Source: Paludibacter sp.
Lineage (GTDB): Bacteria; Bacteroidota; Bacteroidia; Bacteroidales; Paludibacteraceae
DNA: 64,000 nucleotides
Reading direction: 5' to 3'
Assembly (NCBI GenBank): GCA_037132235.1
Contig: JBAXPM010000005.1
Location: 13,320 to 77,319, forward strand
Below, piece after piece: positions 4,501 to 21,873 of the stretch. A model generated the notes under the pieces. The model did not search any database. It saw only the letters and a program-made list of their open reading frames with translations, and was not told the origin of the DNA. Within the stretch, counting starts at the first letter, position 1. Each line of letters opens with the position of its first letter. Made by a program: the position numbers and the translations under genes.

Positions 4501-4780
4501 TTTCAAAAGCTACTTGTCCTATCAATATTCATCACAAAAAATATTACAAACTCATCCGAATGATTTAAGACTTTATGTTATTTCTGAACCTTATAGCAGG
4601 TTAGATTTTAATGCATCCTATGGTTTTGAACTTAAGAACAAAGGCACATTGGAAATAATATTTAAAGCAGCCAACTTAACAAATAGCGAAGACCGGATTA
4701 GATACAGGGATGAAAAACGACCTATTAGCATTGAACAATACGGTGTTACAGCTGACTTAGGCCTGAGATATAAATTTTGA
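1574..4780 (+). CDS. TonB-dependent receptor with STN and CarboxypepD_reg-like N-terminal domains; not a canonical SusC
   Basis: Signal peptide, STN-like SFSNIELSDAIQRIEK, GTVTDIKGHFSL, plug ISAEKLQQNPDANTIEAIGRLPGISV, C-terminal LGLRYKF. Lacks the SusC PLYVLDGFP and ATAIYGARG motifs seen at 24591. Confidence 0.9.
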   Translation: MNLLRNILFYILLAVSLSVYSQNKDKIITVSFSNIELSDAIQRIEKMSNYSFFYDSMIIDLTQKVSLNVVNVSVKQAIAEMLKNNSLDFEITNSQIAIFPIKSLKSTTPKSEKKRVIVGNVVDEKNAEIIGATVKINGTNTGTVTDIKGHFSLEVDNLDVLMISYLGYDSQLFDVAGKTNCTVKLLQSDRKLDEIIITAQALGQKNAIQKQINSNTLKNVISAEKLQQNPDANTIEAIGRLPGISVNRSAGEGAGFLLRGLDQSYSKILINGEPLAVGLNAISTYSLQGVEVYKSLTANLEGNAVAGSVDLTLRETPKGLHYSAMVQSGYNALNNDFGNYNFVGLISNRFFSDKLGVFFSVNADRVNRSTNLISVGYNTNYTTNLNDPFYISSLNFNLNERINYKQSAVLTLDYIASKSTILNFQSFLSASNFYSSSQSKNFSPEGNTATVPIRVTMSEIPEYRNYGITSNFSGRTKLKFLNSVLNYGISYTYNNTKTPGTRNWSYTSETRADGLHRDSLKVFTPAQVANSFDEILTNLAGTKLESMTYDQTEAYNSSFTPRVDYEIPFKSTTGILHGKIQIGAKYRQSHNYLDRTVGVGYAGNNAIFGDFIKNNYNWPTGIVELVVSGQENNFMGGNYLFGDKYSFERNNLVFDAWQLNGKQKYLAGSTGGLGDDPKYSGFVYDLNSSAMNDINETHYYGAGYIMPEINLGEWLMIMPGFRYEYEKADMKAVRGSEVTRSYSVYENINTAFGLKDSVATREDNFLLPMLHVRIKPTKWFYAHFSYTHTVRRPSSGVSPFEYYNAQDASNYSYTAGNPKLKTELWRSYDLQFTFHAKKLGLFSITGFSKTVQDKLWSRSYKRISGEPIPNPVFKDNDLVNMTVYENHPYPILLEGIETEWQTSFGFLPKPFSYLTLSVNYTYTHGKSPNPYTQLYKYKPAGSRYELTGRKDSVVIEPMTGVPEHVVNITMGIEIKNFKSYLSYQYSSQKILQTHPNDLRLYVISEPYSRLDFNASYGFELKNKGTLEIIFKAANLTNSEDRIRYRDEKRPISIEQYGVTADLGLRYKF

Positions 4781-4838
4781 AAATATTAATTACAATTATT
4801 GACTTTAAACAAATAATTCACCTTAAAAAAACAATGAA

Positions 4839-6722: not shown

Positions 6723-7490
6723 ATGAAAATCAAATTATTACTTCTATTATTGTGCGTTTTCTCAATGGTTAATGCCCAAATTACATGGGATTTTAAAACA
6801 GGTGTTGAGGGATGGGGCTCATATGGTGATGATGTTACCGTATCTCATGATGGGTCAGAAAATCTTGTTCTGACTTACACCGGTGGAGCCGATGCTACTA
6901 TTTCATACCCTACAATTTATAATGATACTCCAGTAAATGTTGCCAATGTCAATTTTTTCTACATGAAATTTGCTGCAACCAACTGGCCTAAGTCTTCTGT
7001 ATTGGTCAATATTTATTTTGAGATGGGAGGCAATAACTATTATGCCAATCAAACGATGAATGTGTCGAGTGGAGAATTCTCGTTTAATATCAGAACGGAA
7101 GTACAACACACCTGGAGTGTTTTACCTGCAACCGGAACACCTTCCAGAATAAGAATAGAAATTCCACATAATTCTGAATTAGCCGGTTCAAACTGGAATG
7201 GTGCTTCAATCAAAATTGATAAAATTTCATTCTTAAATTCACTTACAACTGGATTGTCTGAAAAGAGCGAGTCTAATATTTTAGTTTATCCAAATCCGGT
7301 TTCCGAATCATTCCAAATAAAGGGTGGAAAATTTGATAATCTGTCCATTTACAATGCTACCGGAAAACTTATTAAATCGGTCAATGCAAACCTTAGCTCC
7401 ATATCGGTAGCTGACTTTGCCAAAGGCTTGTATTTTGTAAAAATTCATTCCAATGGAATTACAAAAGTTGAAAAACTGATTGTTGAATAG
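6723..7490 (+). CDS. Small T9SS protein: one unnamed CBM-like domain (type B) plus CTD
   Basis: Signal peptide; WDFKTGVEGW...RIRIEIPH...W...IDKISF, homologous to the second domain of 18730..21801; CTD VYPNPVSE...KGLYFVKI. Confidence 0.8.
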   Translation: MKIKLLLLLLCVFSMVNAQITWDFKTGVEGWGSYGDDVTVSHDGSENLVLTYTGGADATISYPTIYNDTPVNVANVNFFYMKFAATNWPKSSVLVNIYFEMGGNNYYANQTMNVSSGEFSFNIRTEVQHTWSVLPATGTPSRIRIEIPHNSELAGSNWNGASIKIDKISFLNSLTTGLSEKSESNILVYPNPVSESFQIKGGKFDNLSIYNATGKLIKSVNANLSSISVADFAKGLYFVKIHSNGITKVEKLIVE

Positions 7491-7587
7491 AATTTTCTAA
7501 AATCATAAACTATTTACTTCACCACGCTGCAATTTGTCTGTTACTAAGACAAATTACTGTGTTGGTATAATTTCACACACTTATATC

Positions 7588-10500
7588 ATGCATAAATTCA
7601 GGTTATTACTGTTTTTTTTCTGTCTTGTCTCGTTATCTTCTATTGCGCAAACGTCATGGACTTTTGATACAAACCTTCAAGGTTGGCACGACCTAGGTGA
7701 TGGGCGCGATGTAACAGCAAGTTGGGAAAACGGGAATTTAAAAATGACTTATTCGGAGCGTTCACCAACAAATGGACCTCAGTTGTGGTTTCCTGCAGTA
7801 CAGGTTGATAATCTGAATTTTAGTGCAGCTTCCTATCCTTATTTTGAAATTTACTATCAGGCAAACTGGCCAACTGTTTTAAACGGAAAGGTGCTGATGA
7901 CACTTACAAAAACAGATAATACGGTTGTTCACTCATTTTTTGATTTCGACCCTACCGAGAATTTTATTTCGGTAGATATTGCTGCCAATGTACGTACGGA
8001 CTGGAATGGAAAGGCTTATGATGGGCAAATAAAATCAATACAATTGGAACTTCCGCACAATTCAAGTACCATTGCTAATCCGGCTACCAATTGGTTTGGG
8101 CTTAATACGCTGATTGATAAGATAAATTTAACTGCAACCCAAACACCTAAGCCCGACAACAGAAAGACAGTTAAATGGTCGTTTGAAACCAATTTTACGG
8201 ATGATGCTGCTCAGTTTGTTTGTGCTACTTCGGGTACTCCGGGTATAAATACCAGCAATTTTAAAAACGGAAAAGCTGCTTTGTATTTAGATGGTGACAG
8301 TTATCTTACAATACCCACAAATTCACTTTTCACATCGAAAGAACAAACCATATCATTTTGGATTAAAACGATTGGTAGTGCTCAGAAATACAGTTCGACA
8401 CCCGCAAACTTGTTCTCGTATAACAATGGAAACTACGATTTAGCCATTAATGGAGGTAAACTTAATTTTCAGAAAACATCACGTATTTGGGACAACCTAA
8501 CCACATGGAATAGTGGTGATTGGCAGCATGTGTCAATTGTAAACGAAAGGAATGTAATGACTTGTTACCTCAACGGAAAAAAATCAGTTGAATTGTTGAA
8601 TGTCCCGATGACAAACAGAACTGGTAATATTGTCATTGGAAATGGCGGATTAATGGCATATATCGACGATTTCTCGGTATATAATTATGCGCTCACTTCT
8701 ACAGAAATTGCTGCTCAAGGGTCGGTACCTTTAAATACAATCAGCGCATGGACATTTGATAAAGACCTTGAAGGTTGGCATGAAATTCAGGATGGAGTTG
8801 ACAGAGATGTTACATTGAGTTGGGAAGCCGGTGATATGAAACTGACTTATACGAATAAAGCGCTTACAAACGGACCACAATTGTGGTTTCCTCAGGTGGA
8901 AGTTGATACCAAGTTTGATGCATCTCTTTATCCTTACTGCGATATTTATTATCAAACTGTAGGTTGGCCGGTTTCCACTCCGGTGAAGGCAGTGCTGGAA
9001 ATGACCAAAGCAGATGGAACGATAGTATATTCCAATTTTGATATTGATCCAACACTAAATTTTGTTCGTGTTGATTTTTCAAACAGCATTCAAAGTAATG
9101 GTTCGGCTTATTCGGGTGAGATAATTAAAGTGCGATTAGAGTTACCTCAAAATACTTCAGCAACACCTGCTGGAAGTTGGTTTGGTGCATCGACAAAAAT
9201 TACAAAAATTGAATTCAAAGATGTTCAACCTACTGTAGATGCAAATTGGGATAGTTTGCTTGGTAAAAGTGCGTTCATAAAATCTGGTTTGACTAAATTG
9301 AATCGAGATGATTATCAATATCAGCCCATAGGTTTAGGTGGAACAACCATGCGTGTCGACCCCTGGGGATTTGGTTTTACAAAAGCACCTATGGCAAATC
9401 CGGGTACGTGGCATCCGCACGAACCATACCTTAGTTATCAGTATTGGTGGGATAATGCAGGTCATAGGTTTAATCCTTTCCTGCTGAAAGCAGGATATGG
9501 TGCAGCACTCAATCCCGGAACAATTACTGCTTTTAATCAAAAATTAGATATTCGTACCGGTGAACTCAGCATTGATCTGGGACTAACTGTTGATGGAACA
9601 ACATTCATTTCCAAACGAACAGTACTTGTTACTCCCGATGGTGTATTAGTAATCAGGGTTCAGGATACTGGAGCACCATCGCCATTGCAAGTCAATATAG
9701 CAGTAGAGCAGGATGTTCGAATATATAATAATGCCGGCATTTATAATGTGTCGCACGATCCATTTACCGGTTCAGCCACTTCACGCGAACAAAACAGCAC
9801 AAAAGGAACTGTGGTAACTGCAACCCGACCCAACACCAGCACCGCTTCGTTGGCAGTTGCGGTTGAGAGTGCTTCGAATGTTACAATAAGTACAGATAAT
9901 CAGATTGTAAGTACAACAGATCCAAACGGCATCGTAACTTACTATATTGCACCGACTTCATCATTCAACCCACTTACTCCAACAGTTACTTGGGATCATG
10001 CATGGAATGCTGCATACACAGCAAAACAAAAAGGATACGAAACGCTACGTCAGGAAACGGCAACGTGGTGGACTAACTATTTCAATCGTTCAAGAATTTC
10101 AGTGCCCGACGAAACAGTTCAGAAATTGTATATGCAATCGCTATATTATCATGGCGTTTACTTTGGAAATACCAAAATTCCCCCTGGATGTAATTCTACC
10201 GATATTGAAAGTTTTGGTGGAGCAGTTTGTCCCGAATATGATTTGGTTCTTAGTCAGTTAGCATTGCTATACACGGGTCATATTAGTGAATCTAAAAACA
10301 TCGCCGACTGGACGTATAGCGTGTTGCCAACAGCCAAATCAAATGCTGTAAATGGAATTACACACCATAATGTAACCAGAAAGTACGATAACGGTGCTAT
10401 TTACACTACCTTAATGGGTTATGATGGCGCACTTGGCGTTCAGCCAACAGTAAGTGAAGGAGCTAATCTGAATCAGAATTATCCGGGTGCAAATGCGTCA

Positions 10501-11712
10501 CTAATGGCACTTTCGTATCTCGATTATAGCAATGATGATACTTTTAAGGATAAAGCATTTGATATTCTGAAATCAACGACCTATGTATCGTTGCAGGATT
10601 TGACCTTTAATGGAAAAACCTATCAATGCAAAAATATGCCAAATACCGTTCAGCAAGCTTCGATACTTTACGGATATAATCAATGTGTAAAACGTGGAAT
10701 TGCTGATGTAGCATGGAGCATTTATGACGGAAAAATACTTATTCCTCAATCGACATTATTTGGTGATACGCTTATTGCCGGTGGTGCAGGAGCTTCCAGT
10801 CAGGAAGGTGTTGGCGATGCTACCTGGTTAACGCATGTTTGGTTTCACAATGTGGTAGATAAACATGACACCAAGGTATTGCCTAGTTATATCAACTCTG
10901 CAAAAACTACTACCGGCGATTACGTCTTCAATAATGGTACTATGGGTGTTGTAGCAGCCAAACTTGGATTGGGAAATGATGCATTATCGTGGTTGCAAAA
11001 ATACCAGCGTACCGACATTTTGTACGATGAAACCTGTTTTACAGAATCGAAAGGGCAACTGTTTTTGACTCCCGAAATAGGGGCGCATGGAACCTATATC
11101 TGCAACCTTACACAAATGTTGCTTGACCCTGATAATGAACAGAAATTAGATGTTTTCCCGGCAATACCAGACAGTTGGGAATATCGTCAGATAGGATTCG
11201 ACAGCTTAATGGCAAAAGGTGGCCTGAAAATTACCGCCACCCGTGATATCCAAAGTGTCAAAGTTGAACTAAAAAACTGTTCGAAACAGTCAGTAAGCAG
11301 AGAAGTAAGTATAAAGATTCCCCGCATGCTTGATGTGGATGGATTGTCATCATCGGATCTAAAAAACGGTTGTATTGTAAATAGTGTTTCGCTTCAACCC
11401 AACGAAACAAAGTTACTTGCATATAATTTCACGCCATCAAAAATTATATCCTCAATTCATACTATCACTACCGATACTGATGCGCTGAAATATAAAATCT
11501 ATCCAAATCCGAATTCAACCGGTTTGTTAAACGTGGCAAATGGTGAAAATGTAGATGAAGTTCAGATTTACTCATTAAAAGGAGAACTCTTAATGTCACG
11601 ACAGGGCAAAATAAATTCATATTCAATTAGTCAGTTAAACGCTGGAATTTATATTGTGTCTTTAAAGATTAACAAAAATCACTCAGTGAAACACATTTTG
11701 CTTGTAAAATAA
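7588..11712 (+). CDS. Multimodular T9SS enzyme: CBM-like / LamG-like / CBM-like / GH95- or GH65-like (alpha/alpha)6 domain / CTD
   Basis: ATG 7588 gives a clean signal peptide. LamG-like TISFWIK...WQHVSIV...YLNG...IDDFSVYNYAL. Catalytic-region motifs LRQETATWWTNYFNRSRISVPD and VFPAIPDSW. CTD IYPNP...AGIYIVSL. Confidence 0.7.
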   Translation: MHKFRLLLFFFCLVSLSSIAQTSWTFDTNLQGWHDLGDGRDVTASWENGNLKMTYSERSPTNGPQLWFPAVQVDNLNFSAASYPYFEIYYQANWPTVLNGKVLMTLTKTDNTVVHSFFDFDPTENFISVDIAANVRTDWNGKAYDGQIKSIQLELPHNSSTIANPATNWFGLNTLIDKINLTATQTPKPDNRKTVKWSFETNFTDDAAQFVCATSGTPGINTSNFKNGKAALYLDGDSYLTIPTNSLFTSKEQTISFWIKTIGSAQKYSSTPANLFSYNNGNYDLAINGGKLNFQKTSRIWDNLTTWNSGDWQHVSIVNERNVMTCYLNGKKSVELLNVPMTNRTGNIVIGNGGLMAYIDDFSVYNYALTSTEIAAQGSVPLNTISAWTFDKDLEGWHEIQDGVDRDVTLSWEAGDMKLTYTNKALTNGPQLWFPQVEVDTKFDASLYPYCDIYYQTVGWPVSTPVKAVLEMTKADGTIVYSNFDIDPTLNFVRVDFSNSIQSNGSAYSGEIIKVRLELPQNTSATPAGSWFGASTKITKIEFKDVQPTVDANWDSLLGKSAFIKSGLTKLNRDDYQYQPIGLGGTTMRVDPWGFGFTKAPMANPGTWHPHEPYLSYQYWWDNAGHRFNPFLLKAGYGAALNPGTITAFNQKLDIRTGELSIDLGLTVDGTTFISKRTVLVTPDGVLVIRVQDTGAPSPLQVNIAVEQDVRIYNNAGIYNVSHDPFTGSATSREQNSTKGTVVTATRPNTSTASLAVAVESASNVTISTDNQIVSTTDPNGIVTYYIAPTSSFNPLTPTVTWDHAWNAAYTAKQKGYETLRQETATWWTNYFNRSRISVPDETVQKLYMQSLYYHGVYFGNTKIPPGCNSTDIESFGGAVCPEYDLVLSQLALLYTGHISESKNIADWTYSVLPTAKSNAVNGITHHNVTRKYDNGAIYTTLMGYDGALGVQPTVSEGANLNQNYPGANASLMALSYLDYSNDDTFKDKAFDILKSTTYVSLQDLTFNGKTYQCKNMPNTVQQASILYGYNQCVKRGIADVAWSIYDGKILIPQSTLFGDTLIAGGAGASSQEGVGDATWLTHVWFHNVVDKHDTKVLPSYINSAKTTTGDYVFNNGTMGVVAAKLGLGNDALSWLQKYQRTDILYDETCFTESKGQLFLTPEIGAHGTYICNLTQMLLDPDNEQKLDVFPAIPDSWEYRQIGFDSLMAKGGLKITATRDIQSVKVELKNCSKQSVSREVSIKIPRMLDVDGLSSSDLKNGCIVNSVSLQPNETKLLAYNFTPSKIISSIHTITTDTDALKYKIYPNPNSTGLLNVANGENVDEVQIYSLKGELLMSRQGKINSYSISQLNAGIYIVSLKINKNHSVKHILLVK

Positions 11713-11763
11713 AAAATAAATTATTCATAAAATATGGCTATTGCCAACAAAAGATTATTCGAA

Positions 11764-13473
11764 ATGAGAAAAACATTTTTATTATCAACGGTTATTCTAG
11801 TGACGTTAAGTCAACTAATTTTAGCACAAAAAAAGACCGACCCTTCCAAAAACGGTCGAGCAGGATTCGATTATTTTGTAGGTATTGTAGGTAGTCCTTC
11901 GGTTATTGAAGATATAAGATGGGACGACAAACAACTGACAGATTTAAAGGAACTGGGCGTAAATATGCTCCAGTTGAGCATAGCATGGGGTGGAAAACCC
12001 GATAACGAAGTAATCAATCTCGAAGATTTGGACGATAAAGTGCAGATTGACAAATGGAAATTCCGAATTGCTCAATGTAAAAAACATGGACTCAAAACGT
12101 TGGCTCACTTTGGAATTCCACGCGTTCTGAACGCTAATCCGGTAAAGCCAGCCTGTATTTCTGATCCTGAAGTTCAGCAGAAATACGTTCAAATGATGAA
12201 TAAGTTTATGGCCACTTTTCCGGAAGTGAACGATGTGTTGATTTATACTTACGACCAGCAAGCATGGATTTGCAGCGAGTTTGGTCCTTGTCCGCGTTGT
12301 TCGGGTATTCCTATCAGCGATCGCTTACCTAACTTTATCAATATGTTGAAAAAAGCCATGCAAGAATCACGTCCGGGAGTAAAAACGATGCTCTGGTGGA
12401 AACCATGGGAACTCTCCAAAGGACAAACAATAGATATAGTGAAAAAAATTGATTCCGATGGTTTTGGTTTAATGCTGAATTCTTCGACCAGCAACGAAGT
12501 ATATCCTTTTAACGATGGCTCATTAAAATCGGATTTAGGCGTAAAACGTTTGGTGCAAAATGCTTACGAGCGGAATATCCCTGTTGTGGGTGAGTTTGAC
12601 CATACGCTTTACAAAGGATTGTATCAAATCGACGATTATTTTCCACGTTTGATTTACGAGCAAATGGCCGGTTGGAAAGAAATTACTGGTGTGGTAGGCG
12701 TAAAAGAATATTATGGTTTTGCTCCTTCAACCTATTCGGTGAATTATGCCATGCTTCATGCCTGGATGAAAAACCCGAATGCAACGGTGGGTGAATTGTT
12801 GAACCAGATTGCAGCACCTTATGGAAAAAAAACAGCTCCAATCATGATAAAAGCATGGGAATATGTGGCTCAGGCAGTGGAGGCATTTCCGTGGGATGTT
12901 ACTTATTTGATTGGTCCTATGGGATTAGATAAAGGAGAAAATGGTGAGCACAGCTGGGATTTTGTGAAAATTATCAATGGTACCTGGGATACACCAATTT
13001 GGGAGTCGAACCGTAGGGCAAACTTTATGCTGACCGACTCAAAAACTGCTCACCCATGGATATTTGAAGATACCGGTTTGCGGTTAGAAGACGCAGCGCA
13101 ACTTAATTTCAAAGCTGTTGAATTCTTCAATCAGGCTATTGCTCAAAACGAAAGTAAGGTTGAAGATATTACTAAACAAAGAGATTTTGTACAGCATACT
13201 GCCCGCTCTTTAAGAGGGAAAAGCATTCATTACGCACTAACAATTGCTGCACAGGATGCTCGAACAGTGGCTTATGACAAAGCGCAGTTCGAAAAAGTTT
13301 GTGCCCGTATAAAAAAACTGTTGGAACTCGATGTAAATAATGGTTACAAATTGGCGGCTGTAAAACTGGAAGAGTTTAATAAAAATCCAAAAACGTGGTT
13401 AGAGAGAAATTTCAATCCGCTTACTTATAAGTCTGAAGCAGAACCAAACTGGAGTAAATGGATTGCTCCCTGA
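11764..13473 (+). CDS. Uncharacterised exported protein, probable TIM-barrel glycoside hydrolase; paralogue of 16497..18302
   Basis: SPI-type signal peptide from ATG 11764. LKELGVNMLQLSIAWG and YTYDQQAWICSEFGPCPRC motifs are shared with the paralogue. Confidence 0.6.
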   Translation: MRKTFLLSTVILVTLSQLILAQKKTDPSKNGRAGFDYFVGIVGSPSVIEDIRWDDKQLTDLKELGVNMLQLSIAWGGKPDNEVINLEDLDDKVQIDKWKFRIAQCKKHGLKTLAHFGIPRVLNANPVKPACISDPEVQQKYVQMMNKFMATFPEVNDVLIYTYDQQAWICSEFGPCPRCSGIPISDRLPNFINMLKKAMQESRPGVKTMLWWKPWELSKGQTIDIVKKIDSDGFGLMLNSSTSNEVYPFNDGSLKSDLGVKRLVQNAYERNIPVVGEFDHTLYKGLYQIDDYFPRLIYEQMAGWKEITGVVGVKEYYGFAPSTYSVNYAMLHAWMKNPNATVGELLNQIAAPYGKKTAPIMIKAWEYVAQAVEAFPWDVTYLIGPMGLDKGENGEHSWDFVKIINGTWDTPIWESNRRANFMLTDSKTAHPWIFEDTGLRLEDAAQLNFKAVEFFNQAIAQNESKVEDITKQRDFVQHTARSLRGKSIHYALTIAAQDARTVAYDKAQFEKVCARIKKLLELDVNNGYKLAAVKLEEFNKNPKTWLERNFNPLTYKSEAEPNWSKWIAP

Positions 13474-13512
13474 TATAGTTGAAAGATTGAAAATTGCTTA
13501 ATAAATTTCAAA

Positions 13513-15033
13513 ATGAACAGGTTTCTTATTCCGGTTTCGGTATTGTTCTTTTCAGCATTGGTGAATGCTGAAAAGAAAGCACAACCTAACATTCTGTTTT
13601 TGTTGAGCGACGATCAGCGCTGGGATTCACAGGGCTGTTTTGGAAACAAAACAGTAAATACACCCGAGATTGACCTTCTTGCTGCCGAAGGAGTTCGGTT
13701 TAGCAATTCTTTTGTTACTTTTTCGGTGTCGTCGGCTAGCCGGGCAGTTATTCTCACCGGCATATATTCTCGTTCGCGTTCAAATGGTGCGGATGATTTA
13801 CCGGCAATTTGTACGCCGGAGAATTGGGAAAATACTTTTCCTGCTTTACTAAAAAAGAACGGATATTATACCGGATATATTGGTAAATGGGACATTGGAG
13901 TGGGTGAAAATGGGTTTCAACATGGAATGAATTTATTTGATTATTGGGGAGGCGATCGTTGGCATGGCAATTACTGGCACGAAAAGGATTGCAATTTTGT
14001 GACCAACGATGGAATAGCTCATAAAAAAGAAATCAGGTGTACGTGTGTAACCGGTAATGCCTGGGATGCTTCGCTTCCGCGAACTGGAAATAATGGCTTG
14101 GTTCATCCTATTCACACCGATGTAGAGGTGGTTCCAATGAAAGTCAAAACGTTTTTGGCATCGAGAGATAAACAAAAACCATTCTTCTTACAGGTTTCAT
14201 TCAGGTCGCCAAAAGATCCGTGGTCTGATTATCCAGTTGAAGTGAAAGATTATTATACCGATGATTCTATTGCAATATCACCAACAGCCAATTTGCAAAA
14301 TGCATTGTCACAGCCGGAGTTTCTTCAAAAATCAATGGCTGCAAACCATGCAAGAAATTTACTGAGAACAAAAGGATTGTTAGAGAATGAAATACGTAAG
14401 CATTATCGACTTGTAACTGGGATTGATATGTCTATTGGCAAACTCCGAAAAATATTGGCAGAGCAAGGCATTGAGGATAATACTATTATCGTATTTGCTT
14501 CAGATAATGGCACTTTTTTGGGAGAACATGGTTTTTGGGGTAAATGGCTGCCTTACGAAGAGTCTATGCGCGTTCCCCTGATAATTTATGACCCGCGCAT
14601 TAAGAAAGAAAGCGGTGGAAAAATAGTTGACGAAATGGTGCTGAATGTGGATTATGCGCCTACTTTTCTCGCATTTGCAGGCATAAAAACACCACGGTAT
14701 ATGCATGGAATGGATATTGGAAAACTTATGGCGGATGAAAAGATTAGCTGGAGAACCGACTGGTATTATGAACACAGCTGGTCTGCCAAAAGTCTTGATT
14801 CAACGGTAACACCAATTATTCCATCAGAAGCTGTCAGGACAAAAGAATGGAAATATATTTTATTCCCAAATCAGCAAGTAGAACAACTCTTTAATATTAA
14901 TAATGATCCCTTTGAAACTGTTGATTTAATCGCTAATCCATCGAATAAAAAGATGTTGGAAAAGCTAAGAGGAAGAATGAATTATTATAGAAAGTTATAC
15001 GAAAAAAGCAAGTTGAAAATTCGCAACATTTGA
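13513..15033 (+). CDS. Formylglycine-dependent (S1) sulfatase, Ser-type
   Basis: PNILFLLSDDQR, S-S-A-S-R-A-V-I-L-T-G, GYYTGYIGKW, SDNG...GEHG...GK...YEESMRVPLI; signal peptide. Confidence 0.92.
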   Translation: MNRFLIPVSVLFFSALVNAEKKAQPNILFLLSDDQRWDSQGCFGNKTVNTPEIDLLAAEGVRFSNSFVTFSVSSASRAVILTGIYSRSRSNGADDLPAICTPENWENTFPALLKKNGYYTGYIGKWDIGVGENGFQHGMNLFDYWGGDRWHGNYWHEKDCNFVTNDGIAHKKEIRCTCVTGNAWDASLPRTGNNGLVHPIHTDVEVVPMKVKTFLASRDKQKPFFLQVSFRSPKDPWSDYPVEVKDYYTDDSIAISPTANLQNALSQPEFLQKSMAANHARNLLRTKGLLENEIRKHYRLVTGIDMSIGKLRKILAEQGIEDNTIIVFASDNGTFLGEHGFWGKWLPYEESMRVPLIIYDPRIKKESGGKIVDEMVLNVDYAPTFLAFAGIKTPRYMHGMDIGKLMADEKISWRTDWYYEHSWSAKSLDSTVTPIIPSEAVRTKEWKYILFPNQQVEQLFNINNDPFETVDLIANPSNKKMLEKLRGRMNYYRKLYEKSKLKIRNI

Positions 15034-15057
15034 AAATTGAAAAACAACTTATAACTA

Positions 15058-16473
15058 ATGAAGACTAAGGTAGGATTATTTGGAATAGGACTTGATACAT
15101 ATTGGGCTCAATTTGAGGGATTACTCGACAATTTGAAAACATATCAGGAAGAAATCAGAAAACGCATCTCAGAATTTGGAGTGGAAGTTGCGGATGCTGG
15201 TATGGTGGATAATCCGGTGAAAGCCTGCGAGGCCGCCGACTATCTGAAAGCACAGGATGTGGAAATTGTGTTTCTATACGTTTCCACCTACGCGCTGTCT
15301 TCAACTGTATTACCGGTGGCTCAAAAACTAAAAGTGCCTGTTGTAATACTGAATTTACAACCTGTTGCCCAACTCGATTACGAGGCGTTTAATAAGTTGG
15401 GAGACCGTGGCAAAATGACCGGTCTATGGTTAGAACATTGTCAGGCTTGCTCAGTTCCGGAAATTGCCAGCGTATTTAATCGCTCAGGAATTCAGTATGA
15501 TTTTGTAACTGGATATCTTCATGATGAGGATGCCTGGGGTGAAATTGAAGCATGGACGGAAGCTGCACGAGTTGCAAACGCTTTACAAAACAACCGCATG
15601 GGAATTTTAGGGCATTATTACGGTGGTATGCTTGATGTGTATACCGATGTAACCAAACAATCAGCTGTGTTCGGAACTCATTTTGAAATGCTTGAAATGT
15701 GTGAACTTAAAAAATATCGTGATGACGTTACTGACAACGAAGTTAAGGCAAAAATTGAAGAATTTAATGTTGCTTTTGATATTGCTCCCGAATGTGAACT
15801 GAATGAAATAGAACGCGCAGCACGCACTTCCATTGCACTCGACAAATTAGTGGTAAATCATAATTTGGGTTCGATGGCATATTATTACGAAGGAGAATCG
15901 GGCAACGATTATGAAAATATCGTCACCTCGGTTATTGCCGGAAATACTTTACTTACTGGAAAGAATATTCCAGTAGCGGGTGAATGTGAGGTGAAGAATG
16001 CACAAGCAATGAAAATCATGGCTGAATTTGGTACCGGAGGTTCATTTTCGGAATTCTACCTAATGGATTTCAACGATGATGTAGTCATGCTTGGACATGA
16101 TGGCCCTGCTCATTTTGCCATTGCCGAAGGTCGTGTACGATTAGTCCCATTACCAATCTACCATGGAAAACCGGGTAAAGGATTATCTATCCAGATGACC
16201 GTGAAACACGGGCGGGTTACCTTACTTTCGGTAGTGGAAGGCAAAGATGGAGTGTTTCTGTTAGTTGCTGAGGGTGAATCAGTAGAAGGACCAATACTTG
16301 AAATTGGAAATACAAATAGTCGTTATCGTTTCCCAATTGGTGCAAAGCGATTTATGAATGAGTGGTCGAAACAAGGCCCTGCACACCATTGCGCCATTGG
16401 AGTTGGACATATTGCGGATAAAATTGAAAAGCTCGGTCAGATATTAGGAATTGAAGTTGTGGAAATTTGTTGA
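15058..16473 (+). CDS. L-fucose/L-arabinose isomerase family protein
   Basis: No signal peptide; ACSVPEI, AGECEVK, GHDGPAH and GPAHHCAIGVGH metal-binding motifs. Confidence 0.8.
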   Translation: MKTKVGLFGIGLDTYWAQFEGLLDNLKTYQEEIRKRISEFGVEVADAGMVDNPVKACEAADYLKAQDVEIVFLYVSTYALSSTVLPVAQKLKVPVVILNLQPVAQLDYEAFNKLGDRGKMTGLWLEHCQACSVPEIASVFNRSGIQYDFVTGYLHDEDAWGEIEAWTEAARVANALQNNRMGILGHYYGGMLDVYTDVTKQSAVFGTHFEMLEMCELKKYRDDVTDNEVKAKIEEFNVAFDIAPECELNEIERAARTSIALDKLVVNHNLGSMAYYYEGESGNDYENIVTSVIAGNTLLTGKNIPVAGECEVKNAQAMKIMAEFGTGGSFSEFYLMDFNDDVVMLGHDGPAHFAIAEGRVRLVPLPIYHGKPGKGLSIQMTVKHGRVTLLSVVEGKDGVFLLVAEGESVEGPILEIGNTNSRYRFPIGAKRFMNEWSKQGPAHHCAIGVGHIADKIEKLGQILGIEVVEIC

Positions 16474-16496
16474 GTTTCAAAAATAGAATTATCATT

Positions 16497-18302
16497 ATGA
16501 GTAAACAACTAATTTATATTTCATTGCTTATTGCACTGTTATCCTCTTGTAAACAAGTAGATACAAACCAGTCACTACAATACAAAGTTGGTATTTTGGG
16601 TGCTCCCTCTTCGCCCAATGTGGAATGGAACGACAAAAACATGGAGTTGATGAAAGAGCTGGGTTTCAATACCATGCAGCTTAATATTGCGTGGGGATAT
16701 CGTCCGGCTGATAATGCACTAAATCTCGAAGATGTGATTCCAGTTCCGGCTGAATTTCGATTGCCGGTTGATAACGATTCTACCCTGAATCAGAATAACG
16801 GTGGCTCCAAACGGTATTTACACAGTAAAGAACGTATTGCAAAACGTGCTGCAGAACTGAAGCATCGTATTGCTATGTGTAAAAAACACGGGATGCGTAC
16901 CATATTTCATTTTGGAGCTCCTTATGTGGTTTATCCTGCTGTAGAGCCACTTTCGCAATGCATTTCGGACCCTAAAACTATAAAACGTTATACAAAATTG
17001 ATTGAAAACTTTCACAAGGAATTTCCCGGAGTCGACGATTTATTGATGTATACTTACGATCAAAATGCCTGGTTGTGTAGCGAAGATGGACCATGCGAAA
17101 GCTGCAGTGCTGTTCCGTTGGATAAGCGTGTTTCCAATTTTGTGAATGTTTTAGCACAAACATGGAAAAAGCTGAATCCTGATGGTCGACTTTGGTGGGA
17201 ACCATGGGAAATTTCTGCCGGACAAACCTACGCTGCTATCGAAAAACTTGATGCCAGTTGCGTCGGTTTATCAATTCATTCGAGCATTACCGAAGTACAA
17301 ATTGCCACGCCAGCTGATCGTTGGTTTAAAAATGTTCTGACATTGGCAGTTGAACGTAAAATCTCTGTTTTAGGCGAAGTTTGGTTGGGTACTGCTACTG
17401 AAGAAATCGAGCCTTATATTTATTTGCCTTCACCGCTTACTACATTGAGAGCATTGCGAGCAATGAATAATGCTGGTAAACTTGCCGGAATAAAAGAGTA
17501 TTATGGCAATATTCCTGACCGTGAAGACCCAAATCTTCGAATGGCATCCATATTCTTTCACAAACCGGGAATCACCGATGTTAAAGCACTTGAATTGTTA
17601 GCTGAACCGTATAAAAATGCTTCAGAAAAAATTCAACTCTATTGGAAATATTCATCCGAAGTTATCGAAATGTACCCCTGGGATATTTCGTGGTTTAGTC
17701 GTGAGGTTGGAAGGAGCGATCCACAGCACTTACTTTCTGAAGCCACGTTGAAAGGTGCTTCGTGGGTAACACCATCATGGCTGTCGAACCGCAGAGCAGC
17801 ATTTATGCGTACGGTAGAAACCGATCAGCCACACTTTTGGATGTTGGAAGATGCACAGCTTCGTTTCGAAGCAACAGCCCGAAAAGTGGATCAGGCATTA
17901 GTGGCAGCTGAAGAAGCAAGAAAAGATATTCCAACGAAATATCTTGCTGAATTTGACATGGGAGTAAAAGAGTTGATTGGTTTTAAACAGCGTTGTTTGG
18001 CTTATACTTATCACATTAGGGAAACAAATCTTTGTAAAATAATGAGACGTTCGTTGACCAAAACAGGTAAGGTAAATGATGTAAACTTAACTGAATTAAG
18101 AACCACACTTTTAAAAGACCAACAAAACCAAGGGGCAAAAAATCGGCTTACACCGGCTGTTGAACTTCTGGACAAAGATGTGAAAAGTTTCTTAAAGAAG
18201 TATTTCAATAAACCTTTACCATCAGGTGTAAAAGCAGATATGTATTTTAATGATTCATTGCCACCCAATGTAAAAACAGTGTGGACACTAACATCAAAAT
18301 AG
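16497..18302 (+). CDS. Uncharacterised lipoprotein, probable TIM-barrel glycoside hydrolase; paralogue of 11764..13473
   Basis: Lipobox LLSSC from ATG 16497. MKELGFNTMQLNIAWG, YTYDQNAWLCSEDGPCESC, GIKEYYG and SNRRAAFM motifs. Confidence 0.6.
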   Translation: MSKQLIYISLLIALLSSCKQVDTNQSLQYKVGILGAPSSPNVEWNDKNMELMKELGFNTMQLNIAWGYRPADNALNLEDVIPVPAEFRLPVDNDSTLNQNNGGSKRYLHSKERIAKRAAELKHRIAMCKKHGMRTIFHFGAPYVVYPAVEPLSQCISDPKTIKRYTKLIENFHKEFPGVDDLLMYTYDQNAWLCSEDGPCESCSAVPLDKRVSNFVNVLAQTWKKLNPDGRLWWEPWEISAGQTYAAIEKLDASCVGLSIHSSITEVQIATPADRWFKNVLTLAVERKISVLGEVWLGTATEEIEPYIYLPSPLTTLRALRAMNNAGKLAGIKEYYGNIPDREDPNLRMASIFFHKPGITDVKALELLAEPYKNASEKIQLYWKYSSEVIEMYPWDISWFSREVGRSDPQHLLSEATLKGASWVTPSWLSNRRAAFMRTVETDQPHFWMLEDAQLRFEATARKVDQALVAAEEARKDIPTKYLAEFDMGVKELIGFKQRCLAYTYHIRETNLCKIMRRSLTKTGKVNDVNLTELRTTLLKDQQNQGAKNRLTPAVELLDKDVKSFLKKYFNKPLPSGVKADMYFNDSLPPNVKTVWTLTSK

Positions 18303-18358
18303 TTTTTTCTATATCAATTTATATATATACTTAAGTGTTGAATCTAAAATCTAAAAAA

Positions 18359-18673
18359 ATGGAACGAAAGGCATTTAAAATGTACCTCAAACCGGGTTTT
18401 GAGAAAGAGTACGAAAAACGGCACAGTGAAATTTGGCCTGAGCTGAAGGTACTTATTCAGCAAAGCGGTATATGTGATTATTCTATATTTTGGGATAAAG
18501 AAACTAATAATCTTTTTGCCATACAAAAAGTGAAAGGTGGTGCTGGTTCGCAGGATTTGGGCAAAAATCCAATAGTCCAAAAATGGTGGGCGTATATGGC
18601 GGACATAATGAAGACAAATTCAGATAATTCACCTGTCACGATCGAATTGAATGAAGTGTTTTATATGGAGTAA
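18359..18673 (+). CDS. rhaM: L-rhamnose mutarotase
   Basis: MERKAFKMYLKPGFEKEYEKRHSEIWPEL...DYSIF...QKWWAYMADIM...LNEVFYME. ATG 18359. Confidence 0.9.
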   Translation: MERKAFKMYLKPGFEKEYEKRHSEIWPELKVLIQQSGICDYSIFWDKETNNLFAIQKVKGGAGSQDLGKNPIVQKWWAYMADIMKTNSDNSPVTIELNEVFYME

Positions 18674-18729
18674 ATATCTTAAATTTAATTATATAACAAA
18701 ACAAATTACTAACTAAAAAAATTACAATC

Positions 18730-21700
18730 ATGAAAAAGAAATTATTTTTATTCTTGTGCTTTTTATCAATTGTTTTGACTGTTAATGCACAGACAGTATG
18801 GAATTTTACTTCCGATTTGGAAGGATGGCATGACCTGGGTGCAGGTCGTGATGTAGCCGCAAGCTGGCAATCGGGTGCACTAAAAATGACTTATTTAGAT
18901 GGTGGCAATGCTGGTACTCAGTTATGGTTTGCAGCTGTTCAGGTTGATAATCTGAGTTTCGCTGCAGCAAATTATCGTTATCTGGAATTAAATTATCAGG
19001 CAAATAACTGGCCAACTTCGTCGCCGGTTAAGATGTTAGTAACACTAACAAAGACAGATAATTCACTTGTATATTCATATATTGATATTGATCCTACGAA
19101 AAACTTCCTTTCAATTGATATACAGGCGAATAATCCGGGTTGGGGACAGACTTATAGTGGCACAATAAAATCAATTCAACTCGAACTGCCTCATAATGGA
19201 GCTGCGGCTTCAAATCCTGCTACAAACTGGTATAGTGCTAGCACATTAATTGATAAGATTAAGGTGACAAATACTCAGACACCACAGGACATAGCATGGG
19301 ATTTCGCAACAACAATTGAAGGTTGGAATCCTTATGGAGACGATGTTACAACATCTCATAGTGGTTCAAATCTGGTAGTAACTTATACAGGAGGTGGTGA
19401 TGGTGTATATGCTTACCCAACAATTTACAAAGACGTATCAATTGATGCTGCCAATATTGATCAGTTTTATATGAAATTTACAGCCCATAATTGGGTTAAA
19501 ACCTCTGTTTTAGTCAATATTGTATTTGAAATTGGCGGTACACCTTATTATGCAAACCAAACTATGACAGTCGCAAATGGAGAATTTACATTCGATATCA
19601 GAGATGGCATACTAGCTAATTGGGGTAAGTTGCCACTTACAGGCAATATTTCACGCATACGAATTGAAATTCCTCATAGTAGCCAATCAGGAACTCCTTC
19701 GGATTGGAATGGTGCAACCCTCGATATAGACCGAATTGTATTTTCAAAAAAACAGATTCCTGATCCACCTACCAACATTGTTGCAACAGCCGGAAATGCA
19801 CAGGCATCGGTAGCTTTCACAGCACCAGCAAGCAATGGTGGCTCAACAATTCTTGATTATACCGTTACTTCAAGCCCGGGAGGTTTAACACAAACCGGCG
19901 CTTCAAGTCCGATAGTGGTTACCGGACTTAGCAATGGTACAGCTTATACATTTACCGTTACTGCACGTAATAGCGTAGGTAGCAGTGCGGCAAGTTCGGC
20001 TTCAAGTGCAATAACTCCAAAAACAGTACCGGGTGCACCAACCATTGGAACAGCTACCGCAGGTAATGCACAGGCATCGGTAGCTTTCACTGCCCCAGCA
20101 AGCAATGGTGGTTCATCAATTATTGATTATACAGTAACTTCAAACCCGGGTAGCATAACAGCAACCGGAGCATCAAGTCCGTTAGTTGTAACAGGCCTTA
20201 CCAACGGAACGGCTTATACCTTTACCGTTACAGCACGTAACAGTGCAGGCAGTGGTTCAGCAAGTGATGCTTCTAATTCAATAACACCCGTGTCACCATC
20301 AGTAACCGTATCGAGTGATGCAAATCTTTCAAGCTATTCACCATCTTCAGCAACTGATGTAACTGTTTCAGCCGGAACTCTTACAGTAGATGTTGATGCA
20401 ACGGTAAAGACGATGACTGTTGCTCCGGGTGCAAAACTGACATTAGCTTCAGGAAAATCATTGTCTGTAGTAGGTGCACTGACTCTTCATAGCGATGCTA
20501 GCGCTACAGCTACTTTTGTAGACAATGGAGGAACGCTTACAGCAGGAACTACAAACGTTCAACAATACCTGACTTCAGGTCGTAACTGGTATGTTTCAAG
20601 TCCTGTATCAGGAGCAAAAAGTGATGTATTCTCAGCAAGTTCAGGCAGTCCGGTTTATTCGTACGATGAAGTACATGGCAGCACAACACCATGGCCAACT
20701 ATTACCAATACAACAACTGACCTTACAGTAATGAAAGGATATGTTACTACTGTCCCTTCGAACGGAGTAATTACTTTCAGCGGTACGTTGAATACCGGAG
20801 CGCAAGAGATTGGTCTTACCCAAACATCAGGTCAAGTTAAAAATGGATTTAATTTGGTAGGTAATCCATATCCAAGTTATTTAGACTGGAGTAGTATAAC
20901 AAAAACCAATATGTTGACCACCATGTGGTATCGTACCAAAACATCGGGCGATGTATATACATTTGATACCTATAATGCAAGTGGTAACATAGCAACCTCA
21001 AACGGAGCAAAAGCAGTAACCAACCTGATTCCTCCAATGCAGGCATTCTGGGTACATGTTCAAACGGGTTTTGCTTCAAGCACACTTTCTGTAACCAACA
21101 ATCAACGGGCTCATGCCGATAACAGTTCAAATACTTTCAAAGCTAAAGCAAGTATTGAAGCTCAATCTGTATTACGGTTAGAAGTATCGAACGGAACAAA
21201 CAGCGATCAGGCATTGGTTAACTTTAATTCAAATGCATCGAATGGTCTTGATAGCTATGACTCACCAAAATTGTCGAATGAGTCAGCGTCTATTCCTGAG
21301 ATTTATACCCTGGCAGGAACTGAACAGGTTGTAATCAATGGTGTAAACGACCTGAATCAACTGACATTAGGTTTCACAACCGGCGAAGCAAATAACTTCA
21401 CTATCAAAACTTCTCAGTTTGCAAACTTTGCAAGTGGAACTCAGATTATTCTTCGTGATAATTTGTTGAATTACGAACAGGATTTGACCTTGGGTGATTA
21501 CAACTTCTATTCCGATGTAACAGCTAACAATGAAACCCGCTTTACAGTATTGTTCAAAGCTCCATCGGTAGCAACCGGTATCAACCCGAACTCAAACGGC
21601 AATGTTTGGATTTCAATTGCCAACAATCAGATTGTGGTTAACGGAGCAAGCGCTGGAACTTCAGTAGCAGTTTACAATGCAGTTGGTCAGAAAATTATGT

Positions 21701-21801
21701 CTGATATGACTCAATTGAAAAAATCATTGGCTACCGGAGTTTACATGGTAACGGTAACCAATGCAGGTAAGAGTGTAACACAAAAAGTAATTATTAAATA
21801 G
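18730..21801 (+). CDS. Non-catalytic T9SS protein ending PUL1: CBM-like type A, type B, 2x FN3, conserved unnamed C-terminal domain, CTD
   Basis: N-terminal domains match 7588 and 6723. Two FN3 repeats (PTNIVATAGNAQASVAFTAP...YTFTVTARN). GFNLVGNPYPSYLDW domain is shared with 39229..43146. Confidence 0.85.
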   Translation: MKKKLFLFLCFLSIVLTVNAQTVWNFTSDLEGWHDLGAGRDVAASWQSGALKMTYLDGGNAGTQLWFAAVQVDNLSFAAANYRYLELNYQANNWPTSSPVKMLVTLTKTDNSLVYSYIDIDPTKNFLSIDIQANNPGWGQTYSGTIKSIQLELPHNGAAASNPATNWYSASTLIDKIKVTNTQTPQDIAWDFATTIEGWNPYGDDVTTSHSGSNLVVTYTGGGDGVYAYPTIYKDVSIDAANIDQFYMKFTAHNWVKTSVLVNIVFEIGGTPYYANQTMTVANGEFTFDIRDGILANWGKLPLTGNISRIRIEIPHSSQSGTPSDWNGATLDIDRIVFSKKQIPDPPTNIVATAGNAQASVAFTAPASNGGSTILDYTVTSSPGGLTQTGASSPIVVTGLSNGTAYTFTVTARNSVGSSAASSASSAITPKTVPGAPTIGTATAGNAQASVAFTAPASNGGSSIIDYTVTSNPGSITATGASSPLVVTGLTNGTAYTFTVTARNSAGSGSASDASNSITPVSPSVTVSSDANLSSYSPSSATDVTVSAGTLTVDVDATVKTMTVAPGAKLTLASGKSLSVVGALTLHSDASATATFVDNGGTLTAGTTNVQQYLTSGRNWYVSSPVSGAKSDVFSASSGSPVYSYDEVHGSTTPWPTITNTTTDLTVMKGYVTTVPSNGVITFSGTLNTGAQEIGLTQTSGQVKNGFNLVGNPYPSYLDWSSITKTNMLTTMWYRTKTSGDVYTFDTYNASGNIATSNGAKAVTNLIPPMQAFWVHVQTGFASSTLSVTNNQRAHADNSSNTFKAKASIEAQSVLRLEVSNGTNSDQALVNFNSNASNGLDSYDSPKLSNESASIPEIYTLAGTEQVVINGVNDLNQLTLGFTTGEANNFTIKTSQFANFASGTQIILRDNLLNYEQDLTLGDYNFYSDVTANNETRFTVLFKAPSVATGINPNSNGNVWISIANNQIVVNGASAGTSVAVYNAVGQKIMSDMTQLKKSLATGVYMVTVTNAGKSVTQKVIIK

Positions 21802-21873
21802 ATTATTAAAAAATAATTGTTGATTGATTTAAGTAGTTTTTTCATAAAACCTTAACTATGATTTGTTTACAAC

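What the first reader, a model, noticed from the sequence alone, without database searches (positions are those of the whole stretch)
6723..19750. Unnamed ~150-160 aa CBM-like domain in five copies and two subtypes within PUL1
Seen: type A occurs at ~7650-8140, ~8740-9225 and ~18790-19280 (W.F..DL.GWH...RDV..SW..G..K.TY...QLWF..V.VD...LELP(H/Q)N...W...I.KI). Type B occurs at ~6780-7240 and ~19290-19750 (WDF....EGW..YGDDVT.SH...YPTIY...YANQTM...RIRIEIPH...WNGA...ID.I.F). Both share W.F....GW at the start and LE(L/I)P...W...I..I at the end. The domain is found alone, flanking a catalytic domain, and as an A+B tandem on the terminal protein. Inference: a beta-sandwich CBM family specific for the PUL1 glycan.
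Basis: partly seen in the sequence, partly recalled or inferred. Interest (0 to 1): 0.65.

Follow-up and report, generated by a model that had tools for sequence, protein, structure and literature searches.

The report
Unannotated sugar-binding-like domain, five copies
Three secreted surface proteins in one sugar-utilisation gene cluster of a freshwater Bacteroidales bacterium carry five copies of a rare, unannotated 160-residue beta-sandwich module. It looks like a new family of carbohydrate-binding modules, but binding has not been tested.

Summary
Five copies of a ~160-aa domain lie at the stated coordinates, in two subtypes. Type A copies are 50-63% identical to each other, and A versus B is 27-28% (BLASTP 3e-14; hhalign probability 99.5%). 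These are the only copies in the 3.5-Mb genome.

AlphaFold gives a confident all-beta jelly roll (pLDDT 96.6). Its nearest solved structures are many different CBM families (CBM X584, 28, 27, 11, 22, 17, 30, 4) at a flat Z of 9-12 and 8-14% identity. No Pfam, NCBIfam or PDB-sequence match was found. The profile-profile match to CBM_4_9 reaches only 19% probability. dbCAN/CAZy could not be run.

The family is rare: 42 clusters among 1.84 billion, 0 of 300 genomes in the organism's own family, and 3 of 400 in its order.

Elsewhere the domain is fused to SASA esterase, BNR sialidase-like, beta-helix plus dockerin and GH43-like modules. In this window it extends a GH95/GH65/GH139-fold module that also exists without it in other phyla.

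The two A copies in the 1392-aa protein flank a Laminin_G_3 domain, not the catalytic module.

Best reading: a new CBM family displayed on T9SS-anchored proteins. The likely target is a sulfated rhamnose- or fucose-containing glycan. Binding is inferred, not shown. This is a moderately interesting, routine type of discovery.

The parts
6723..7490 (+). Gene for a 255-aa protein (P0003): signal peptide, one type B domain, T9SS C-terminal sorting domain
   Evidence: ORF. Por_Secre_tail at residues 188-254, E 2.4e-14. About 20 orthologues at 61-77% identity, all named 'hypothetical'.
6771..7250 (+). Type B domain, copy 1 (P0003 residues 17-176)
   Evidence: HMM match E 4.7e-67. Alignment. B clade.
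7588..11712 (+). Gene for the large enzyme (P0001). Layout: signal peptide, A, Laminin_G_3, A, GH95/GH65-fold module, T9SS sorting domain. The ORF list starts it at TTG 7534, but ATG 7588 is the likely start.
   Evidence: ORF. The 98%-identical orthologue P0064 is 1374 aa, which equals 1392 minus 18.
7645..8151 (+). Type A domain, copy 1 (P0001 residues 38-206); this is the copy that was modelled
   Evidence: HMM E 3.6e-81. AlphaFold pLDDT 96.6, all-beta.
8290..8712 (+). Laminin_G_3 (ConA-like) domain lying between the two A copies
   Evidence: PF13385, E 2.5e-16, residues 253-393.
8734..9234 (+). Type A domain, copy 2 (P0001 residues 401-567)
   Evidence: HMM E 1.4e-77. 50% identical to copy 1.
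9256..11478 (+). Catalytic-type module: N-terminal beta-sandwich, (alpha/alpha)6 barrel, C-terminal beta-sandwich; fold of GH95/GH65/GH139
   Evidence: Model pLDDT 92.8. Foldseek best hits are GH95 1,2-alpha-L-fucosidases, E 1e-27, TM 0.7, 12% identity. Stand-alone ~770-aa homologues exist.
11497..11697 (+). T9SS C-terminal sorting domain of P0001
   Evidence: PF18962, E 1.2e-8.
18730..21801 (+). Gene for a 1023-aa non-catalytic surface protein (P0002). Layout: signal peptide, A, B, two FN3 domains, long stalk of unknown function, T9SS sorting domain.
   Evidence: The C-terminal part resembles only generic T9SS cargo.
18784..19287 (+). Type A domain, copy 3 (P0002 residues 19-186)
   Evidence: HMM E 1.0e-77.
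19285..19761 (+). Type B domain, copy 2 (P0002 residues 186-344)
   Evidence: HMM E 1.4e-68.
13513..15033 (+). S1 sulfatase (context: a clue to the target glycan)
   Evidence: Pfam Sulfatase plus SGSH_C. [quoted passage not shown]
18335..18673 (+). L-rhamnose mutarotase (context)
   Evidence: PF05336, E 2.8e-30.

Best explanation
The repeat is a previously unannotated family of non-catalytic carbohydrate-binding modules with the beta-jelly-roll (galactose-binding-domain-like) fold.

It sits directly behind the signal peptide of three proteins. The type IX secretion system exports these proteins and tethers them to the cell surface by their C-terminal ends. The modules therefore point away from the cell.

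The three carriers look like this:
- The 255-aa protein (B only) and the 1023-aa protein (A, B, two FN3 domains, stalk) have no catalytic part. They would act as surface glycan-binding proteins.
- The 1392-aa protein uses an A-LamG-A extension to hold a GH95/GH65-fold glycosidase on the polymer.

Types A and B are old paralogues with different loop residues. They probably recognise different epitopes of the same glycan.

The companion genes are an S1_25-like sulfatase, a rhamnose mutarotase and an aldose isomerase. A related locus also has a GH29 fucosidase. Together these point to a sulfated L-rhamnose- or L-fucose-containing polysaccharide of freshwater algae or cyanobacteria.

Shown: the repeats, their homology, the fold, the modular context, the rarity and the restriction to this locus. 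Inferred: sugar binding, the ligand, and different specificities for A and B.
For: 1. Fold. The model has pLDDT 96.6 and is all-beta. Of the 50 best VIA-align matches, most are CBMs (X584, 28, 27, 11, 22, 17, 30, 8, 29, 86, 15, 4) at Z 8.5-11.8, covering 130-145 of 171 residues. Foldseek agrees.

2. Modularity.
- The GH95-fold module occurs alone as ~770-aa proteins in Planctomycetota, Verrucomicrobiota and Hydrogenedentes. About 30 Bacteroidales proteins carry it with the A-LamG-A extension.
- Elsewhere the domain is fused to SASA esterase, GH43 (weak match), BNR_2, beta-helix plus dockerin, DUF4450, PKD and FN3 modules.

3. Constraint. Between orthologues the A copies are conserved as well as the catalytic module (50-75%). 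They are better conserved than LamG or the sorting domain.

4. Locus restriction and synteny.
- All 5 copies lie in one locus.
- Two related MAGs, G301 and G302, give 6 and 5 matches; in G302 all five lie on one contig.
- The whole gene order is kept in lake-metagenome contigs.
- A variant locus has a protein with 5 copies next to a GH29 fucosidase.

5. Composition. The domain is Trp-rich (5-7 Trp per ~165 aa). Subtype-specific invariant aromatics lie in loops.

6. Precedent. The top structural neighbour, 8qx6, was likewise an unassigned repeat found in an SGBP and on a GH. It was then shown to bind glycan (bioRxiv 10.1101/2023.09.07.556657).

7. Ligand clue. The sulfatase's best solved relative is the S1_25 rhamnose-3-sulfate sulfatase, and a rhaM gene is present.
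Against: No binding experiment exists.

The fold is shared with non-binding or non-glycan modules. Examples are a phage baseplate protein, CIA30, MAM, laminin IV and the chondroitinase ABC N-domain, at the same Z of 9-12.

No single CBM family stands out, so function cannot be transferred from a close relative.

The domains are acidic (pI 4.5-4.9, net charge -4 to -9). That does not favour simple electrostatic binding of a polyanionic sulfated glycan.

CAZy/dbCAN membership was not tested.
Confidence: 0.65

Rival explanations
1. The domain is a structural or protein-protein interaction module with no sugar binding. It might dock the T9SS-anchored proteins onto each other, or onto the SusD-less TonB-dependent transporter, or act as a rigid spacer.
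For: The same superfold occurs in non-glycan contexts at equal Z: phage baseplate 8gtc at Z 11.8, complex I assembly factor 7zkq at 10.9, and MAM and laminin IV domains. PUL1 has no SusD, so some protein has to cooperate with the transporter. The domains are acidic.
Against: The domain is attached to unrelated carbohydrate-active modules (SASA, BNR, beta-helix plus dockerin, GH95-fold). It also occurs with different anchoring systems (T9SS, PEP-CTERM, dockerin). That pattern fits a substrate-targeting module better than a partner-specific docking module. Spacers are not usually conserved as strongly as the catalytic domain.
Confidence: 0.17
2. The domain is simply a divergent member of an existing numbered CAZy CBM family (for example the CBM4/9/22 group, or a recently created family). 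HMMER-level searches would have missed this.
For: The N-terminal F..GW motif aligns weakly with CBM4 of C. fimi CenC (1gu3/1ulo, E about 1). It also aligns weakly with a CBM_4_9 alignment (hhalign pairwise E 0.0012, probability 19%, 49 columns). One of the 59 domains touches PF02018 at E 0.13. dbCAN was not available.
Against: No family-level match appears in Pfam-A, NCBIfam or any PDB chain sequence, even with a 59-sequence profile. The structural Z values are flat across about 12 families, with 8-14% identity. True family members usually stand out.
Confidence: 0.13
3. The domain has a catalytic or metal-dependent accessory activity on the glycan, using the near-invariant D22, E135, P137, H138 and D158 residues.
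For: The E-(L/I)-P-H motif and an Asp are conserved in both subtypes.
Against: H138 is not conserved in the distant members of the family (19%). The fold neighbours are binding modules, not enzymes. In this superfold, conserved acidic residues typically bind structural Ca2+ (general knowledge, not tested here).
Confidence: 0.05

Closest known systems
Laminarin-binding CBM 'X584' (called CBMxx in the preprint) of Christiangramia forsetii, PDB 8qx6
   Same: It is the best structural match (Z 11.8, 139 residues aligned, rmsd 2.8). It follows the same logic: a previously unassigned beta-sandwich, repeated in a non-catalytic surface glycan-binding protein and also appended to a glycoside hydrolase in a Bacteroidota PUL.
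   Different: Identity is only 12%, and the 59-sequence profile does not find it at E <= 10. Its carrier there is described as an SGBP; here all three carriers bear a T9SS sorting domain. Its ligand is a neutral beta-1,3-glucan, whereas this locus points to sulfated deoxyhexose glycans.
CBM4/CBM9/CBM22/CBM16/CBM11/CBM17/CBM28/CBM27/CBM30 (beta-jelly-roll, mostly type B CBMs; Pfam CBM_4_9, CBM_17_28 and others)
   Same: Same superfold and size, Z 9-11.4. The N-terminal F..GW motif weakly resembles the start of CBM4/CBM_4_9. These modules are also appended to glycoside hydrolases.
   Different: There is no significant sequence or profile match. This family has its own conserved signature: W5, F7, G13-W14, D22, Y36, W75, W120, E135-x-P137-H138 and W150. 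It also has a narrow, patchy distribution.
Ulvan-binding domain of the Nonlabens ulvanivorans ulvan lyase (PMC5361163)
   Same: Functional analogy only. It is a non-catalytic binding module on a T9SS-secreted enzyme that acts on a sulfated rhamnose-containing polysaccharide.
   Different: It lies between the catalytic domain and the sorting domain, not at the N-terminus.
SusD / SusE/F-type surface glycan-binding lipoproteins of canonical PULs
   Same: The proposed role is the same: capture of the target glycan at the cell surface, next to a SusC-like transporter.
   Different: The fold and the anchoring differ entirely (T9SS sorting domain rather than lipid anchor). PUL1 has no SusD gene, whereas the neighbouring PUL2 has one.

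Membership tests
Carbohydrate-binding module (CAZy definition) | A contiguous sequence with a discrete, independent fold | tested here: met
   The 171-aa segment folds alone at pLDDT 96.6, pTM 0.91. It occurs as the only module besides the sorting domain in P0003.
Carbohydrate-binding module (CAZy definition) | Found within, or appended to, carbohydrate-active enzymes | tested here: met
   It is fused to a GH95/GH65-fold module. That module exists without it elsewhere. In other proteins it is fused to SASA esterase, BNR_2, beta-helix plus dockerin, and GH43 (weak) modules.
Carbohydrate-binding module (CAZy definition) | Demonstrated carbohydrate-binding activity | not testable with these tools
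   This needs ITC, affinity gels or glycan arrays on recombinant modules.
Beta-jelly-roll / galactose-binding-domain-like CBM superfold | Two-sheet antiparallel beta-sandwich of about 130-180 residues that superposes on known members | tested here: met
   68 PDB cluster representatives reach Z >= 8, and CBM families dominate the 50 best matches listed; 130-145 residues align at rmsd about 3 A. Foldseek probability is 1.00 for CBM4, 11, 16, 22 and 28.
Pfam CBM_4_9 (PF02018) and other Pfam CBM families | Sequence match above the family's gathering threshold | tested here: not met
   No Pfam hit for the three proteins over the domain. Of 59 domains scanned, the best CBM hit is one member at E 0.13. 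hhalign against a CBM_4_9 alignment gives probability 19%.
CBM X584 / CBMxx (8qx6) | Sequence-family membership | tested here: not met
   12% identity in the structural alignment. It is not retrieved by the A2 profile at E <= 10 against all PDB sequences.
Any numbered CAZy CBM family (dbCAN HMMs) | dbCAN HMM hit | not testable with these tools
   No dbCAN library was available. Families that have a solved structure are covered indirectly by the negative PDB-sequence profile search.

The most novel reading that the evidence does not exclude
The A and B modules would be the glycan-capture apparatus of a non-canonical, SusD-less uptake system. In that system T9SS-anchored binding proteins replace SusD and SGBP lipoproteins next to an ECF/anti-sigma-coupled TonB transporter. 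They would also define a new CBM family with a specificity not yet represented in CAZy: sulfated L-rhamnose or L-fucose epitopes of freshwater algal or cyanobacterial polysaccharides.
Probability: 0.3. Interest if true: 0.6.

Novelty: new variant of a known kind. Interest (0 to 1): 0.42.

Why it matters
If binding is confirmed, this would found a new CBM family. It might also give the first module specific for sulfated deoxyhexose glycans in freshwater systems. That would be useful as a probe for such polysaccharides and for annotating a set of 'hypothetical' T9SS proteins.

It would also document a PUL-like system that uses T9SS-displayed binding proteins in place of SusD. Its enzyme belongs to an unclassified GH95/GH65-fold family.

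New CBM families are found regularly, however. The result would extend current understanding of glycan capture rather than overturn it.

Tried and rejected
- The search for related loci with alignments A1 and A2 failed because no stretch was conserved enough. I used the single protein P0003 instead.
- The small 5-sequence profile gave a PDB hit to a racemase (3mkc, E 0.0025). It vanished with the 59-sequence profile, which instead gave a chalcone synthase at E 0.075. Both are unrelated folds, and I treat both as chance.
- Literature searches for this domain or locus found nothing specific.
- The scan's own index holds no look-alike of the domain.
- Cluster look-up of the distant members returned only 'hypothetical protein' and no taxa.
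- I considered electrostatic binding of a sulfated polyanion. The domains are acidic, so this is not supported as a simple mechanism.
- I tried to locate the binding face from strand order and conservation. Conserved, subtype-specific residues are enriched in loops 17-23, 44-49, 74-80, 120-127 and 136-153. Without coordinates the two ends of the sandwich differ only modestly (about 62% against 48% conserved positions), so I make no claim about the site.
- The metatranscriptome run gave only two short contigs on the locus (7639-7838 and 12412-12590). This is a hint of expression, not proof.
Full report
**Observation.** Between 6.7 and 21.8 kb the window holds three + strand genes whose products begin with a signal peptide followed at once by the repeat.
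- P0003 (6723-7490, 255 aa) has one copy.
- P0001 (ORF 7534-11712; likely start ATG 7588) has two copies.
- P0002 (18730-21801, 1023 aa) has two adjacent copies.

Identities and statistics are as follows:
- Type A copies are 50-63% identical to each other, and type A versus B is 27-28%.
- BLASTP gives E 5e-58 for A1/A2 and 3e-14 for A/B.
- An HMM built from type A alone retrieves all type B domains, and the reverse also works. hhalign gives probability 99.5%.

A profile search of the organism's whole 3.53-Mb assembly finds exactly these five copies and no others.

**Architecture.** All three proteins end in a T9SS type A sorting domain.
- P0003 is nothing but B plus the sorting domain.
- P0002 is A-B-FN3-FN3 followed by about 430 residues that resemble only generic T9SS cargo stalks, with no enzyme signature.
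- In P0001 the two A copies flank a Laminin_G_3 domain (residues 253-393).

The catalytic-type part of P0001 is residues ~575-1315. I modelled it from 52 homologues (pLDDT 92.8). It has the beta-sandwich / (alpha/alpha)6 / beta-sandwich build of GH95, GH65 and GH139. GH95 1,2-alpha-L-fucosidases are the best Foldseek hits (E 1e-27, TM about 0.7, about 12% identity).

This module occurs on its own as ~770-800-aa proteins without any Pfam domain, some from Planctomycetota, Verrucomicrobiota and Hydrogenedentes. About 30 proteins of 1224-1715 aa (most about 1375 aa) carry one to four type A copies ahead of it, usually as A-LamG-A; the few with source names are Bacteroidales MAGs. The repeat is therefore an accessory module added to an autonomous enzyme.

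**Fold.** I modelled copy A1 with an alignment of 59 domain instances. The model is very confident (pLDDT 96.6, pTM 0.91) and all-beta.
- Foldseek against the PDB lists CBM22-type, CBM28, CBM4, CBM11, CBM16 and CBM30 modules and the CBM-like N-domain of GH50 agarases, at TM 0.45-0.60 and 7-15% identity.
- An exhaustive VIA-align pass over 48,161 chains gives a flat top. It includes the laminarin-binding CBM X584 (8qx6, Z 11.8), a phage baseplate protein (11.8), CBM28 (11.4), the chondroitinase ABC N-domain (11.3), CBM27 and CBM11 (11.2), then CBM22, 17, 30, 8, 29, 86, 15 and 4 at Z 8.5-10.8.
- AlphaFold DB and ESM Atlas searches find the same shape in unannotated stretches of multidomain extracytoplasmic proteins.

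The fold is thus the common beta-jelly-roll of type B/C CBMs. No family stands out as the parent.

**Family membership by sequence.**
- Pfam-A and NCBIfam see nothing over the domain.
- Scanning all 59 domains singly gives only one member touching CBM_4_9, at E 0.13.
- The 59-sequence profile against every PDB chain sequence gives nothing below E 0.07. CBM4 of CenC appears at E about 1, over the N-terminal F..GW motif only.
- I built a CBM_4_9 alignment from 28 domains found in related genomes. hhalign against the family profile gave probability 19% over 49 columns, against 0.2% for a reversed control.

So there may be a very remote link to the CBM4/9 group, but the domain is not a member of it. 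I could not run dbCAN, so membership of a recent CAZy family without a Pfam model or a solved structure remains untested.

**Distribution.**
- A HMMER pass over 1.84 billion cluster representatives finds only 42 at E <= 1e-3 and 24 at E <= 1e-10.
- None of 300 sampled genomes of the organism's own family carries the domain, including the 32 sampled from its own genus.
- In its order, 3 of 400 sampled genomes carry it, and only one of those is a strong match.
- Close relatives of the locus come from an uncultured Paludibacter MAG and an uncultured Bacteroidales MAG. These give 6 and 5 matches; in the Bacteroidales MAG all five lie on one contig in the same layout.
- Lake-metagenome contigs keep the complete gene order: ECF sigma, FecR, STN-TonB receptor, 596-aa T9SS protein, B protein, A-LamG-A enzyme, 579-aa protein, sulfatase, isomerase.
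- The DNA itself is found in lake and freshwater metagenomes.
- A variant locus holds a 1774-aa protein with five copies, other multi-copy proteins and a GH29 alpha-L-fucosidase.
- More distant members are fused to SASA esterase, BNR_2 with TSP3 repeats, beta-helix with dockerin, DUF4450, a weak GH43 match, PKD, or a PEP-CTERM anchor. The domain is therefore not tied to T9SS or to one enzyme class.

**Constraint and subtypes.** Across 17 orthologues of P0001 the A copies keep 44-98% identity. This tracks the catalytic module (50-98%) and exceeds LamG and the sorting domain.

In a tree of the 59 domains, type B is a well-supported clade (SH-aLRT 98). Type A is a looser one (SH-aLRT 80). Within A, the internal copy (A2) and the N-terminal copies form separate orthologous groups, so the duplications predate the spread of the locus.

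Conserved positions are:
- Family-wide, at 80% or more in both subtypes: W5, F7, G13, W14, D22, Y36, W75, Y96, W120, G127, E135, P137, H138, W150 and I157; of these only F7, W14 and P137 are invariant across all 59 domains.
- Type A only: H15, R21, W27, the GPQLWF loop, Y66, D102-P103 and Y125.
- Type B only: Y17, Y49, Y53, K70, the YYANQTM strand, R113 and R133, plus deletions in three loops.

The domains are Trp-rich and acidic (pI 4.5-4.9).

**What the locus probably eats.**
- The sulfatase's best solved relative by a wide margin is 6hr5 (E 2.8e-67, next best 2.8e-51). [quoted passage not shown] S1_25 also contains a sulfatase active on sulfated fuco-oligosaccharides (PMC9096561).
- The locus also encodes an L-rhamnose mutarotase and an arabinose/fucose-isomerase-like protein.
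- The enzyme fold is that of alpha-L-fucosidases.

Together these point to a sulfated 6-deoxy-L-hexose glycan. This is inference from context.

**Mechanism proposed.** T9SS export tethers the three proteins by their C-termini, which puts the N-terminal modules outermost. P0003 and P0002 would act as non-catalytic glycan-binding proteins. P0001 would use A-LamG-A to stay on the polymer.

PUL1 has no SusD, while the neighbouring PUL2 has a normal SusC/SusD pair and uses a known ricin-type CBM on its T9SS GH43. The new modules may therefore supply the capture function in PUL1.

The closest structural neighbour, CBMxx/X584, has the same history. It was an unassigned repeat in an SGBP and on a GH, and was then shown to bind its glycan. 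I put this reading at about 0.65.

The main rivals are:
- a non-glycan docking or spacer module (0.17);
- a missed membership of an existing CAZy family (0.13; this concerns novelty only);
- an accessory catalytic or metal-dependent role (0.05).

**Verdict.** The feature is real and statistically solid. It is a rare, unannotated beta-sandwich module family with two conserved subtypes, best read as a new CBM family. The function is plausible but untested. A new family within a very well-known kind of module is of moderate interest. The SusD-less, T9SS-based context and the probable sulfated deoxyhexose target add some value.

Noticed in passing
window 7534-7590: The ORF list starts the large gene at TTG 7534. 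The 98%-identical orthologue P0064 is 18 residues shorter (1374 aa). This fits a start at ATG 7588 (MHKFRLL...), which is followed by a typical signal peptide.
   Followed up: partly
window 9256-11478: The C-terminal 740 residues of P0001 form a GH95/GH65/GH139-fold module with no Pfam family above threshold and only about 12% identity to solved GH95 enzymes. More than 50 stand-alone ~770-aa homologues were found, a few with source names from Planctomycetota, Verrucomicrobiota and Hydrogenedentes. It is possibly an unclassified GH family.
   Followed up: partly
window 13513-15033: [quoted passage not shown] This is unexpected for a freshwater anaerobe.
   Followed up: partly
window 1574-6629: PUL1 has an STN-domain TonB-dependent receptor under ECF sigma/FecR control but no SusD. 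The next gene is a 596-aa T9SS protein with no Pfam or PDB match. This pairing is conserved in lake-metagenome contigs (L011, L012) and in the P0023 locus.
   Followed up: partly
window 11734-13473 and 16467-18302: Two proteins of 579 and 611 aa have no Pfam, NCBIfam or (for the first) PDB sequence match. The 579-aa gene is syntenic in related loci.
   Followed up: no
window 20700-21850: In lake metagenomes the 3' end of the P0002 gene shows 5-10 times higher summed contig depth than the rest of the locus, and many 'skip' joints. The stalk and sorting-domain region is probably shared with paralogues or other community members.
   Followed up: no
window 7639-7838 and 12412-12590: Two short contigs from a freshwater metatranscriptome library map here at 94-97% identity. 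One lies inside type A copy 1. This is a hint that a close relative's locus is transcribed in situ; DNA carry-over is not excluded.
   Followed up: no
metagenome contig carrying P0023 (no DNA held): This is a variant of the locus in which the domain family is expanded. One 1774-aa protein has five copies (B, A, A, B, A), with a LamG_3 domain (221-364) between the first two. It lies next to a 1214-aa B-LamG-A-PKD protein, a 1378-aa GH95-fold enzyme and a GH29 fucosidase.
   Followed up: partly
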